Source of the DNA: a virus
Taxonomy: Duplodnaviria > Heunggongvirae > Uroviricota > Caudoviricetes
Virus record (IMG/VR): IMGVR_UViG_2721755662_000004
Length of the DNA stretch: 64,000 nucleotides
Strand: one strand, 5' to 3'
A program made the translations under genes and the position numbers. This document shows positions 20,129-20,893 of the stretch, piece after piece. The notes beneath the pieces were generated by a model that was given only the letters and a program-made list of their open reading frames with translations, searched no databases and was not told where the DNA came from. Positions within the stretch are counted from its first letter, which is position 1. Every line of letters begins with the position of its first letter.

Positions 20129-20175
20129 AAATCTGCATATCATGATAAGAGTGGTTACATTGCCACGCAGCCGAA

Positions 20176-20198
20176 CCCGCCGATGCGCGGGTTTTTTT
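20176..20198 (+). terminator. Intrinsic terminator about 50 nt after Q (candidate tR' of short pR' transcript)
   Basis: CCCGC-loop-GCGGG plus T7. Confidence 0.55.
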
Positions 20199-20378
20199 GT
20201 ACCCAGAATCCTGTGAGCTATACGGAAAGTACACAGAAAGGAAGGTACGACCGCAATTAATAACAAAATCTTAAAAATCTCATATGGCACTATTAGTTTT
20301 CTAAATATTGTATATTTTAAGTATTGCAGGATAACCCTGTAACGAAGTTTGCGTAACAGCATTTTGCTCTACGAGTTT

Positions 20379-20408
20379 GCCAGCCTCCCCTGGTGGCTGG
20401 CTTTTTTT
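20379..20408 (+). terminator. Second intrinsic terminator in the Q-nanS interval
   Basis: GCCAGCC-loop-GGCTGGC plus T7. Confidence 0.55.
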
Positions 20409-20642
20409 GTATCCGTTCAACGGGAATGTTACATACCTCACAATTAAGTCAGTTGAATGTTGTCTGCCCGGATGAGAATTTGTTAGAAAAAACTGCATGG
20501 TGAATCCCCCTGAGCGGAGGGGCGACTGGTGACGGTATAATCTCTGATTATCAAAACGAGAATGACGCGGGTTTAGTGGCACCGGGCTGAACTCACCGGG
20601 AGGCACCCGGCACCATGCAATGGCACATAGCGCCACTCTCCA

Positions 20643-20695
20643 GCCCCTCTCCGGAGGGGCTTTCTTATGGACAAAAAAGCCCGCGCTGGGAGACG
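20643..20695. terminator. Back-to-back hairpins forming a probable bidirectional terminator
   Basis: GCCCCTC-TCCG-GAGGGGC plus TTTCTT on plus; CCCGCG...CGCGGG plus T6 on minus. Confidence 0.35.
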
Positions 20696-20893
20696 CGGGC
20701 GGCAAGGAATGAACAATGAAACGTGAAGTAATATTTCAGCTGGCGAATAATACCCCATAGTAATCACTCTGCGCAACTGCGCGACCTTTTTCGAATTGCG
20801 GGCTGTAGTCTCCCTTCTGCCATTGTCCTGTAACTTCCGGACTTCAGCCCGCTCCTTATTTTACTCACAATATTATCCCGGCCGGGAGGATTC

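What the first reader, a model, noticed from the sequence alone, without database searches (positions are those of the whole stretch)
20129..20890. Q-to-late-gene interval contains three terminator structures and no tRNA or stx genes
Downstream of Q there is an intrinsic terminator about 50 nt after the stop, a second about 250 nt later preceded by an AT-rich promoter-like stretch, and a pair of back-to-back hairpins with T-runs on both strands near 20643-20695. This suggests a short pR' transcript plus at least one additional small RNA, and possibly an antisense transcript terminating from the right. The usual Stx-phage tRNA and stx cargo is absent.
Basis: partly seen in the sequence, partly recalled or inferred. 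Interest (0 to 1): 0.4.

Follow-up and report, generated by a model that had tools for sequence, protein, structure and literature searches.

The report
Stx-phage late leader without toxin cargo
The gap between the phage Q gene and the late genes holds the small RNAs and terminators already described in Shiga-toxin phages (StxS, STnc100 and an antisense partner), but the slot where toxin and tRNA genes normally sit is empty, so this is a known, ordinary arrangement.

Summary
The 765-nt Q-to-nanS-p interval has 6 terminator-like sites (5 distinct), against 0.9 +/- 0.9 in shuffles, and no tRNA or stx genes. All of it matches published elements of 933W/Sakai-type Stx phages.

- **pR' and StxS:** pR' (20116-20143, start about 20150) drives StxS, which is 95-97% identical to the Sakai and 933W copies.
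- **Second terminator:** this is the mapped tR' (3' end at +258 = 20407).
- **AT-rich stretch:** it holds the RNase E site GU|AUU (+173) that releases the rpoS-activating 3' sRNA. It is probably not a separate promoter.
- **First hairpin (+24..+49):** long annotated as a "possible terminator" and must be leaky.
- **Cargo slot (about 20417-20423):** relatives carry tRNAs and/or stx here. This window has about 7 bp.
- **Back-to-back hairpins:** they end a convergent sRNA pair, STnc100 (20467-20672, 165 bits) and a minus-strand RNA. That RNA is homologous to Sakai EcOnc42 and is not AsxR or AgvB.

The empty slot occurs in 90 of 5,426 complete E. coli genomes, including O104:H4. Function is inferred by homology; nothing was measured in this strain. 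Verdict: already known, low interest.

The parts
19694..20128 (+). Q antiterminator gene, 144 aa (Q21/Q933W family)
   Evidence: ORF list. Pfam PF06530 at 170 bits. Homologous to solved Q21 structures 6p18 and 6jnx, E 1.3e-7. RefSeq calls it 'antiterminator Q family protein' in O104:H4.
20116..20143 (+). Late promoter pR' (-35 TTTACG 20116-20121, 16-nt spacer, -10 TATCAT 20138-20143), overlapping the Q stop codon
   Evidence: Promoter scan. Sequence is invariant in 933W, VT1-Sakai and phi296. The same bases are annotated as pR' in VT1-Sakai and 933W.
20150..20407 (+). StxS_L homologue: the 258-nt pR' leader transcript from the inferred start (A20150) to the tR' 3' end
   Evidence: Sakai dRNA-seq start and Term-seq 3' end (PMC7547250) were mapped onto the window through NC_002695.2. 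Ungapped identity over 292 nt (20116-20407, pR' through tR') is 95.2% to Sp15 and 97.3% to 933W.
20156..20164 (+). -10-like TACATT (+7..+12), a candidate sigma-dependent pause element; coincides with the annotated 'qut'
   Evidence: Direct reading of the sequence. 'Putative Q-utilization' is annotated at the homologous bases of VT1-Sakai and 933W. The role is inferred from the Q21 mechanism (10.1101/651190).
20173..20198 (+). Hairpin 1 plus U7 (+24..+49): promoter-proximal terminator-like structure
   Evidence: Scan and fold. Annotated as a possible rho-independent terminator in 933W and VT1-Sakai. Present at a fixed offset in all 78 IMG/VR relatives in which the pR' motif was found. It must be leaky in vivo because StxS_L reads through it.
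20321..20325 (+). RNase E motif GUAUU; cleavage after +173 (20322|20323)
   Evidence: The position equals +173 from A20150, exactly as reported for Sakai StxS. The motif is conserved in all four aligned phages.
20323..20407 (+). StxS_S homologue (processed 3' sRNA, about 74-85 nt) with the rpoS-activating seed CCCUGUAACGAA at 20335-20346
   Evidence: 97.6% identical to 933W; the only differences are 2 nt in the terminator loop. The Sakai Hfq peak EcOnc15 maps to 20329-20390. Duplex with the rpoS leader is -23.5 kcal/mol, against -11.3 +/- 3.1 in shuffles (1 of 1000).
20379..20408 (+). tR' intrinsic terminator (GCCAGCC/GGCUGGC plus U7)
   Evidence: Fold. The Sakai Term-seq 3' end maps to the U-tract. 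Annotated as a terminator in 933W and VT1-Sakai.
20409..20424 (.). Empty cargo ('moron') slot. The left arm ends at CCGT (20416) and the right arm starts at about 20424. The filler TCAACGG (20417-20423) forms the palindrome CCGTTCAACGG.
   Evidence: Pairwise BLAST and alignment. At the same point phi296 carries 473 bp with 3 tRNAs, VT1-Sakai 1.5 kb with stx1AB, and 933W tRNAs plus stx2AB.
20467..20672 (+). STnc100-family sRNA (EcOnc27 / sRNA103 / PasD-related); terminator hairpin at 20642-20661
   Evidence: Rfam RF02076, 165.1 bits against a gathering score of 47, full-length, E about 1e-38. The same family sits at the same place in 933W, Sp15 and phi296. Its promoter is unresolved.
20672..20700 (-). 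Minus-strand intrinsic terminator (GCCCGCGU/GCGCGGGC plus U6), convergent with the STnc100 terminator
   Evidence: Scan. Fold -16.9 kcal/mol, z -3.6.
20672..20776 (-). Predicted short minus-strand sRNA (about 70 nt, 20741 to 20672) with promoter TTGCGC-18-TATTAT (20776 to 20747). Positional counterpart of AsxR.
   Evidence: Relaxed promoter scan. The AsxR promoter in 933W is TTGCGC-18-TAAAAT at the aligned position. Fold z -3.2. No expression evidence.
20755..20865 (-). Body of the longer antisense RNA homologous to Sakai EcOnc42 (Northern about 271 nt). It runs antisense to the nanS-p leader; the 5' end is uncertain (candidate promoters give starts near 20865 or 20903).
   Evidence: The EcOnc42 Hfq-CRAC peak (Tree 2014 Table S2) maps to 20837-20759 on the minus strand at 92% identity. 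Promoter candidates.
20765..20893 (+). Highly conserved nanS-p leader, with palindrome TGCGCAACTGCGCG (20770-20783) and Shine-Dalgarno GGGAGG (20884-20889)
   Evidence: Nearly invariant across the window, 933W, Sp15 and phi296 (alignment A1).
20894..22804 (+). nanS-p type sialate O-acetylesterase, the first late gene after the slot
   Evidence: Pfam DUF1737, SASA and DUF6645. Annotated as a SASA family carbohydrate esterase or NanS in relatives.

Best explanation
This is the late-operon leader of a 933W/Sakai-type, short-tailed Stx-like prophage that carries no toxin or tRNA cargo.

Shown here by sequence:
- A Q21/Q933W-family Q gene is followed by pR', a -10-like pause element, a proximal hairpin plus U7, an AT-rich stretch with a GUAUU motif, and a strong terminator.
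- Then comes the point where relatives carry tRNAs and/or stx. Only about 7 bp lie there in this window.
- Then comes a full-length STnc100-family sRNA gene that ends tail-to-tail with a minus-strand terminator.
- Then comes a conserved leader and the esterase gene nanS-p.

Inferred from experiments on 92-98% identical sequences in E. coli O157 Sakai:
- In the lysogen pR' fires constitutively from A20150.
- Some polymerases may stop at hairpin 1. Those that pass terminate at tR' (20407), giving the 258-nt StxS_L.
- RNase E cuts StxS_L at GU|AUU (20322|20323). The Hfq-bound 3' sRNA pairs through CCCUGUAACGAA with the rpoS leader and activates RpoS.
- STnc100 (plus strand) and an EcOnc42-like antisense RNA (minus strand, possibly also a roughly 70-nt form from an AsxR-type promoter) are transcribed convergently. 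Each stops at its own hairpin.

Inferred from the Q21 structures: on induction, Q loads onto the polymerase paused near the -10-like element and forms a nozzle on the RNA exit channel. That polymerase then reads through all the plus-strand hairpins (hairpin 1, tR', the STnc100 terminator and the weak 20770 hairpin) into nanS-p and the lysis genes.
For: - Terminator enrichment: 6 sites against 0.9 +/- 0.9 in shuffles. All hairpins fold as predicted, z from -2.1 to -3.6.
- The Q protein matches PF06530 and is homologous to Q21 structures.
- The pR' to tR' stretch is 95-97% identical and ungapped relative to Sp15 and 933W.
- The Sakai start site, 3' end and Hfq peak map to A20150, U20407 and 20329-20390.
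- GUAUU sits exactly at +173.
- The rpoS duplex is -23.5 kcal/mol; 1 of 1000 shuffles reaches it. The rpoS leader sequence was verified in 5,417 genomes.
- STnc100 scores 165 bits. The same family is found at the same position in 933W, Sp15 and phi296.
- The EcOnc42 peak maps to 20837-20759 on the minus strand.
- Tree 2014 describes convergent sRNAs at the moron site downstream of pR' in Sp3, 4, 5, 9, 10, 11, 15 and 17.
- The cargo breakpoints are shared with tRNA-, stx1- and stx2-bearing relatives.
- Sy 2020 notes that several non-toxigenic phages also encode StxS.
Against: - No transcript data exist for this strain; every functional step is transferred by homology.
- Hairpin 1 looks like a competent terminator, yet published work reports only the 258-nt product, so its role is unsettled.
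- dRNA-seq in Sakai did call a start site at the StxS_S 5' end, and a -10-like TATATT sits at the right distance (20311-20316).
- No convincing sigma-70 promoter was found for STnc100. The best is TTGAAT-15-GAGAAT, 8 of 12 matches.
- Northern sizes (235/247 nt for EcOnc27, about 271 nt for EcOnc42) exceed the lengths I can account for from promoter-like sites.
- The mapping of Sakai coordinates rests on a 135-nt offset between genome versions. I inferred that offset from the tR' anchor rather than reading it from a record.
Confidence: 0.85

Rival explanations
1. Hairpin 1 is the effective tR' and yields a pR' RNA of about 49 nt. The RNA ending at the second terminator is a separate primary transcript from a promoter in the AT-rich stretch.
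For: - Hairpin 1 has a GC-rich stem and an uninterrupted U7, and is annotated as a possible terminator in 933W and VT1-Sakai.
- A -10-like TATATT (20311-20316) would place a start at about 20323.
- ATGGCA-16-TATTGT scores 8 of 12.
- TSSpredator called a primary start at the StxS_S 5' end in Sakai.
Against: - In Sakai, RLM-RACE recovered the StxS_S 5' end without TAP.
- The 258-nt species accumulates in rne-3071 at the non-permissive temperature.
- RNase E crosslinks flank the GUAUU site.
- Term-seq placed the pR' transcript's 3' end at +258.
- The strict promoter scan finds no plus-strand promoter here.
Confidence: 0.12
2. The minus-strand element is chiefly a short (about 70 nt) Hfq-dependent anti-sRNA of the AsxR/AgvB kind with a new specificity. 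It is made from the TTGCGC-18-TATTAT promoter, rather than being the long EcOnc42-type antisense RNA. The two readings are not mutually exclusive.
For: - The promoter has the same -35 and spacing as the AsxR promoter of 933W at the aligned position.
- It has the same convergent tail-to-tail arrangement with STnc100 as AsxR.
- The predicted 69-nt RNA folds with z -3.2 and has a single-stranded 5' half.
Against: - No match to the AsxR or AgvB covariance models even at E <= 10, while AsxR scores 88 bits in 933W.
- The roughly 42-nt 3' region shared by AsxR, AgvB and EcOnc03 is absent.
- In Sp15 the Hfq peak lies upstream of this predicted start, and the Northern band is about 271 nt.
Confidence: 0.3
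3. The hairpins are inert leftovers of a deletion that removed the tRNA and stx cargo, and the interval no longer makes discrete RNAs.
For: The cargo is missing. Only about 7 bp separate the two arms. RefSeq annotates nothing in the interval.
Against: - Both arms are intact up to the breakpoints. pR', tR', the StxS seed and the full STnc100 model are preserved.
- The same empty configuration is present in 90 complete E. coli genomes and in 11 IMG/VR loci besides this window.
- Homologous units are expressed in Sakai regardless of cargo.
Confidence: 0.03

Closest known systems
StxS (EcOnc15), the pR'-tR' leader sRNA of Stx1 and Stx2a phages Sp15, Sp5 and 933W (Sy, Lan & Tree 2020, PMC7547250)
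   Same: It sits directly after a 144-aa Q. The pR' hexamers and the start context are identical. The RNase E motif GUAUU is at +173, the rpoS seed is present, and the terminator is at +258. Identity is 95-98%, ungapped.
   Different: Two bases differ in the tR' loop (CUGG instead of CCAG), and the U-tract is U7 instead of U6. There is no stx downstream, so the cis/trans target stx1B is not supplied by this prophage.
STnc100 (Rfam RF02076), also called EcOnc27 in Sakai and sRNA103 in EDL933, and related to PasD of EPEC
   Same: Full-length covariance-model match (165 bits). It lies on the plus strand immediately upstream of nanS-p and downstream of the cargo slot, and it ends tail-to-tail with a minus-strand sRNA.
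   Different: It is only 79% identical to the 933W copy (91.5% to Sp15, 97% to phi296). It starts 60 nt after tR' rather than about 75 nt after stx2B. Its function and promoter are still undefined in the literature.
EcOnc42 / EcOnc08 / EcOnc21 (Sakai Sp15 and Sp4; Tree et al. 2014, Table S2)
   Same: The Hfq-CRAC peak sequence maps at 92% identity to 20837-20759 on the minus strand, and a rho-independent terminator lies 55-85 nt downstream. It is convergent with the STnc100-type sRNA.
   Different: No differences are demonstrable. The 5' end and function are unknown in both.
AsxR and AgvB anti-sRNAs (RF02703, RF02702)
   Same: Same place, orientation, promoter -35 and spacing, and the same tail-to-tail terminator arrangement with STnc100.
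   Different: There is no covariance-model match, and the body and conserved 3' region are unrelated in sequence. It is therefore a positional analogue, not a member.
Q-dependent late-gene cassette of lambdoid phages (Q21 nozzle mechanism; lambda 6S RNA)
   Same: The layout is Q gene, pR', a -10-like pause element in the initial transcribed region, terminator(s), then late genes. The Q protein is homologous to Q21.
   Different: There are two tandem terminators in the leader, and more terminator hairpins (the sRNA genes) lie between the leader and the first late gene.

Membership tests
StxS (pR'-tR' leader sRNA of Stx phages) | Encoded directly downstream of the short (144-aa) Q allele | tested here: met
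   Q is 144 aa and matches PF06530. Sy 2020 links StxS to the 144-aa Q clade.
StxS (pR'-tR' leader sRNA of Stx phages) | Transcribed from pR', with the start 22 nt after the Q stop | tested here: met
   The promoter hexamers and start context are identical to Sakai and 933W. The Sakai start maps to A20150. Transcription itself was not tested.
StxS (pR'-tR' leader sRNA of Stx phages) | 3' end at an intrinsic terminator 258 nt from the start | tested here: met
   Hairpin plus U7 at 20379-20408. 20150 + 257 = 20407, which lies in the U-tract.
StxS (pR'-tR' leader sRNA of Stx phages) | RNase E motif GU|AUU at +173 | tested here: met
   GTATT at 20321-20325, so +173 = 20322.
StxS (pR'-tR' leader sRNA of Stx phages) | Seed complementary to the rpoS leader site used by DsrA, RprA and ArcZ | tested here: met
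   Duplex 20323-20347 with the rpoS leader is -23.5 kcal/mol; 1 of 1000 shuffles reaches it. The seed is identical to 933W.
StxS (pR'-tR' leader sRNA of Stx phages) | Hfq binding, accumulation as a roughly 74-nt RNA, and RpoS activation | not testable with these tools
   Shown only for Sakai.
STnc100 (RF02076) | Covariance-model score at or above the gathering threshold (47 bits) over the full model | tested here: met
   165.1 bits over model positions 1-206.
STnc100 (RF02076) | Expressed as a discrete Hfq-associated RNA | not testable with these tools
   Northern and RNA-seq evidence exists only for the homologues EcOnc27 and STnc100_4.
AsxR / AgvB anti-sRNAs | Match to RF02703 or RF02702 | tested here: not met
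   No hit at E <= 10 in 20100-20900. Positive control: AsxR scores 88 bits in 933W.
AsxR / AgvB anti-sRNAs | Shared 3' region of about 42 nt (..GUAUCUCAUGC..UUGCCCGAACCCACUCGGGCUUUU) | tested here: not met
   Alignment A1 and the AsxR sequence. Only 11 nt of the minus-strand element match 933W.
AsxR / AgvB anti-sRNAs | Own promoter, antisense to the late operon, convergent with the plus-strand sRNA at the moron site | tested here: met
   TTGCGC-18-TATTAT aligns with the AsxR promoter TTGCGC-18-TAAAAT. The terminators are tail-to-tail. This is a sequence prediction only.
EcOnc42/08/21 antisense RNA | [quoted passage not shown] | tested here: met
   92% identity over 79 nt at 20837-20759 (minus strand). 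The terminator is at 20700-20672.
EcOnc42/08/21 antisense RNA | Transcript of about 271 nt | not testable with these tools
   Candidate promoters predict 194 or 232 nt. The 5' end is unresolved.
Q21/Q933W-type antitermination cassette | Q protein of PF06530, homologous to Q21 | tested here: met
   Family naming from 10.1101/651190.
Q21/Q933W-type antitermination cassette | Sigma-dependent pause element and Q-binding element near the start of the pR' transcript | tested here: inconclusive
   A -10-like TACATT lies at +7..+12, and 'qut' is annotated at the same bases in relatives. No Q-binding element has been defined for this Q type, so none could be tested.
Moron (cargo) insertion site downstream of pR' | The same left and right breakpoints as relatives that carry different cargo | tested here: met
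   The breakpoints at about 20416 and 20424 are shared with phi296 (tRNAs), VT1-Sakai (stx1AB) and 933W (tRNAs plus stx2AB).

The most novel reading that the evidence does not exclude
Two details of this well-studied locus have, in the papers read here, no published function and are not excluded by my evidence.

1. Hairpin 1 (+24..+49) could be a genuine promoter-proximal attenuator. It would split constitutive pR' transcription between a roughly 49-nt dead-end RNA and StxS_L, and so set the StxS dose, and through it RpoS, in lysogens.
2. The Sp15-type minus-strand partner could be a new anti-sRNA or cis-antisense regulator of nanS-p. It has an AsxR-like promoter but an unrelated body.

The empty slot would then show that these sRNA 'bookends' form a self-standing module that exists independently of the toxin cargo.
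Probability: 0.2. Interest if true: 0.4.

Novelty: already known. Interest (0 to 1): 0.12.

Why it matters
It matters little as a discovery. The interval is a textbook Q/pR'/tR' cassette plus the sRNAs mapped in E. coli O157 by Tree 2014 and Sy 2020.

It has some practical use:
- It shows that a toxin-free prophage, present in O104:H4 and several clinical isolates, still carries an intact StxS, which is an RpoS activator in Sakai, and an intact STnc100-family sRNA. Variation in the STnc100/EcOnc27 region downstream of stx2 has recently been linked to HUS outcome (PMC12711010).
- RefSeq annotates none of these RNAs.
- The empty slot defines to within a few bases where tRNA and stx cargo is inserted.

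Tried and rejected
- **AsxR/AgvB membership:** tested with Rfam at E <= 10 and rejected. The 933W positive control worked.
- **Weak Rfam hits at 20295-20411:** Qrr, RprA, DsrA, VqmR and atoC all score far below gathering and are driven by the terminator. RprA and DsrA are at most functional analogues through the shared rpoS seed, so I treat the hits as chance or analogy. The anti-hemB hit spanning both back-to-back hairpins is also chance.
- **Sigma-54-like TGGCAC in STnc100:** read by eye and dismissed, because the -12 element is absent.
- **STnc100 promoter:** searched for and not resolved. The best match is TTGAAT-15-GAGAAT, 8 of 12.
- **5' end of the long antisense RNA:** unresolved. Candidates at 20865 and 20903 do not reproduce the roughly 271-nt Northern size.
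- **Unconstrained RNAduplex of StxS_S against 61 nt of the rpoS leader:** gave a spurious long duplex. It was repeated with the terminator removed.
- **Unavailable sources:** the 933W genome paper (PMC93574) and the Sy 2020 supplementary TSS tables are not held.
- **Sakai coordinates:** the published coordinates did not fit NC_002695.2 directly. I inferred a 135-nt offset from the tR' anchor. It is consistent with the EcOnc15 peak falling inside StxS_S.
- **80 IMG/VR relatives of Q:** all are 94% identical or more, so they give no covariation test for hairpin 1 or tR'.
- **Minus-strand ORFs in the interval** (43, 67 and 134 aa): judged spurious. They run through terminators and sRNA genes, and only PHANOTATE annotates such ORFs.
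Full report
**What is there**

The interval 20129-20893 lies between a 144-aa Q gene and a nanS-p type esterase gene.
- The Q gene is at 19694-20128. It matches PF06530 at 170 bits and is homologous to the solved Q21 structures (E 1.3e-7).
- The esterase gene is at 20894-22804 and has DUF1737, SASA and DUF6645 domains.
- The window is 100% identical over 20 kb to a prophage of E. coli FORC_069, FORC_043 and NCCP15648, and 98.6% identical to one in O104:H4 outbreak strains.
- RefSeq annotates nothing between Q and the esterase.

The consensus scan finds 6 terminator-like sites (5 distinct) in these 765 nt, against 0.9 +/- 0.9 in dinucleotide shuffles. 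Folding gives the following.

| Structure | Coordinates | Energy (kcal/mol) | z |
|---|---|---|---|
| Hairpin 1 | 20173-20194 plus T7 to 20198 | -14.9 | -2.4 |
| Hairpin 2 | 20379-20401 plus T7 to 20408 | -16.8 | -3.4 |
| Plus-strand hairpin of the pair | 20642-20661, tail UUUCUUAU | -18.0 | -2.8 |
| Minus-strand hairpin of the pair | 20700-20679 plus T6 to 20673 | -16.9 | -3.6 |
| Weak plus-strand hairpin | 20770-20783 plus T5 | -7.0 | -2.1 |

- GC content falls to 18% at 20260-20319.
- ARAGORN and Rfam find no tRNA in the whole window.
- tblastn with Stx1 and Stx2 subunits, and blastn with the 933W tRNA cluster, find nothing meaningful.

**The pR' leader is StxS**

The sequence from 19601 to 20407 aligns without gaps to phi296, Nil3, VT1-Sakai (Sp15) and 933W at 95-98% identity.

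The GenBank records of VT1-Sakai and 933W annotate four features at the homologous bases:
- the late promoter, corresponding to window 20116-20143 (TTTACG-16-TATCAT, also found by the scan);
- a putative qut site, corresponding to 20157-20164;

Sy, Lan & Tree 2020 (PMC7547250) mapped this transcript in Sakai by dRNA-seq, Term-seq, RLM-RACE and an rne-ts strain.
- pR' starts a 258-nt RNA, StxS_L, that ends at tR'.
- RNase E cuts it at GU|AUU, position +173.
- The stable 3' fragment, StxS_S, binds Hfq. It activates rpoS through the seed used by DsrA, RprA and ArcZ, and it represses stx1B.

I transferred their coordinates through NC_002695.2, using a 135-nt version offset inferred from the tR' anchor.
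- The start falls on A20150, 7 nt after the -10 hexamer.
- The 3' end falls on U20407.
- The EcOnc15 Hfq peak falls on 20329-20390.
- GTATT sits at 20321-20325, so the cut after +173 is 20322|20323 exactly.

The 85 nt from 20323 to 20407 differ from 933W only by two loop bases of the terminator. The segment 20323-20347 pairs with the rpoS leader at -23.5 kcal/mol, against -11.3 +/- 3.1 for shuffles (1 of 1000). The leader sequence was verified in 5,417 genomes.

The second terminator is therefore tR' of the pR' transcript, and the AT-rich stretch carries the processing site.

Hairpin 1 (+24..+49) is nearly invariant in 78 IMG/VR relatives. It must be read through at least partly, because the 258-nt RNA exists. 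Its own contribution has not been reported in the papers I could read.

An internal -10-like TATATT (20311-20316) and the start site called by TSSpredator at the StxS_S 5' end keep a separate promoter alive as a minor rival.

**The cargo slot**

Homology to relatives stops at CCGT (20416) and resumes at about 20424. The filler is TCAACGG, which makes the palindrome CCGTTCAACGG. At this point relatives carry different cargo:

| Relative | Cargo at the slot |
|---|---|
| phi296 | 473 bp with three tRNAs |
| VT1-Sakai | 1.5 kb with stx1AB |
| 933W | tRNAs plus stx2AB |

This is the "moron" site described by Tree et al. 2014.

A 161-nt probe across the junction gives these counts:
- It is contiguous in 90 of 5,426 complete E. 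coli genomes, out of 683 that match either arm.
- It is contiguous in none of 50,697 deposited phage records.
- Among the 78 IMG/VR relatives of this Q in which pR' was found, 11 show the same 87-88 nt spacing between tR' and the STnc100 core as this window.

**The back-to-back hairpins end a convergent sRNA pair**

*Plus strand.* Rfam RF02076 (STnc100) matches 20467-20672 over the full model at 165 bits, against a gathering score of 47.
- The same family sits at the same place in 933W, Sp15 and phi296.
- In Sakai this RNA is EcOnc27. Its Northern bands are 235/247 nt, and the 247-nt band is destabilised without Hfq.
- In EDL933 it is sRNA103.
- It is reported 75 nt downstream of stx2.
- It is related to PasD, which lies just upstream of the esterase gene in EPEC.

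*Minus strand.* 933W has AsxR tail-to-tail with STnc100, at 88 bits.
- The window has no AsxR or AgvB match even at E <= 10.
- Its sequence is the Sp15 and phi296 type (alignment A1; 93-99% identity).
- The Sakai Hfq peak EcOnc42 is on the genome plus strand, antisense to the late operon, with a Northern band of about 271 nt. It maps to 20837-20759 on the minus strand, upstream of the 20700-20672 terminator.
- A promoter-like TTGCGC-18-TATTAT (20776 to 20747) aligns with the AsxR promoter TTGCGC-18-TAAAAT of 933W. It predicts an additional RNA of about 70 nt (fold z -3.2). There is no expression evidence for it.
- The 5' end of the longer RNA is unresolved. Candidate promoters give 194 or 232 nt.

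**How it most likely works**

- **In the lysogen:** pR' is constitutive. Transcripts end at tR', possibly with a fraction ending at hairpin 1, and are processed to StxS_S. STnc100 and the antisense RNA(s) are made independently, and each stops at its own hairpin.
- **On induction:** Q of the Q21/Q933W family loads at the promoter-proximal pause. TACATT at +7..+12 is a plausible sigma-dependent pause element. By the nozzle mechanism shown for Q21, Q carries the polymerase through every plus-strand hairpin into nanS-p and the lysis genes.
- **Status of the evidence:** these steps are inferred from homologues. Only the sequence features are shown here.

**Verdict**

Every element is already described for Stx phages, and Sy 2020 already noted StxS in non-toxigenic phages. 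Novelty: already known. Interest: low.

What remains open is the role of hairpin 1, the identity and function of the Sp15-type antisense RNA, and the promoter of STnc100.

Noticed in passing
window 15542-15740 and 17127-17325 (+): Two copies of an isrK, c4-a1b1 and C4 antisense-RNA module (Rfam, all above gathering). The second lies just upstream of antirepressor-type ORFs (17378-18061, 18130-18858). This is a P1/P7 immI-like antirepressor control unit, duplicated inside a lambdoid prophage.
   Followed up: no
window 13503-13677 (+): sok antitoxin RNA (RF01794, 110 bits), which implies a hok/sok-type toxin-antitoxin locus in the prophage early region.
   Followed up: no
window 59696-59785 and 60579-60664 (-): Two sRNA-Xcc1 matches (RF02221, 68 and 73 bits) about 900 nt apart near the right end of the window.
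   Followed up: no
window 22805-22943: The intergenic region after nanS-p has a minus-strand terminator (CTGCCGCTGGCGG plus T7, 22830 to 22818). By eye it also has a plus-strand AU-rich hairpin plus T6 at about 22866-22900. Zhu, Shabalina & Storz 2026 place PasA/PasC between the esterase and holin genes. I had no PasA sequence to compare.
   Followed up: partly
window 20413-20423: The cargo junction itself forms an 11-nt palindrome, CCGTTCAACGG. Only TCAACGG is not shared with cargo-bearing relatives. Whether this is an ancestral empty site or a deletion scar could not be decided.
   Followed up: partly
window 20765-20893: The nanS-p leader is almost invariant across the window, 933W, Sp15 and phi296, while the sRNA bodies beside it diverge (A1). 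It contains the palindrome TGCGCAACTGCGCG, which doubles as the -35 of the AsxR-type promoter on the other strand.
   Followed up: partly
window 20386-20394: The tR' loop variant CCCCTGGTGG occurs in 10 of the sequences scanned (the 80 IMG/VR loci plus this window). That is about as many as have the empty slot, which suggests one lineage. The per-locus correlation was not checked.
   Followed up: no
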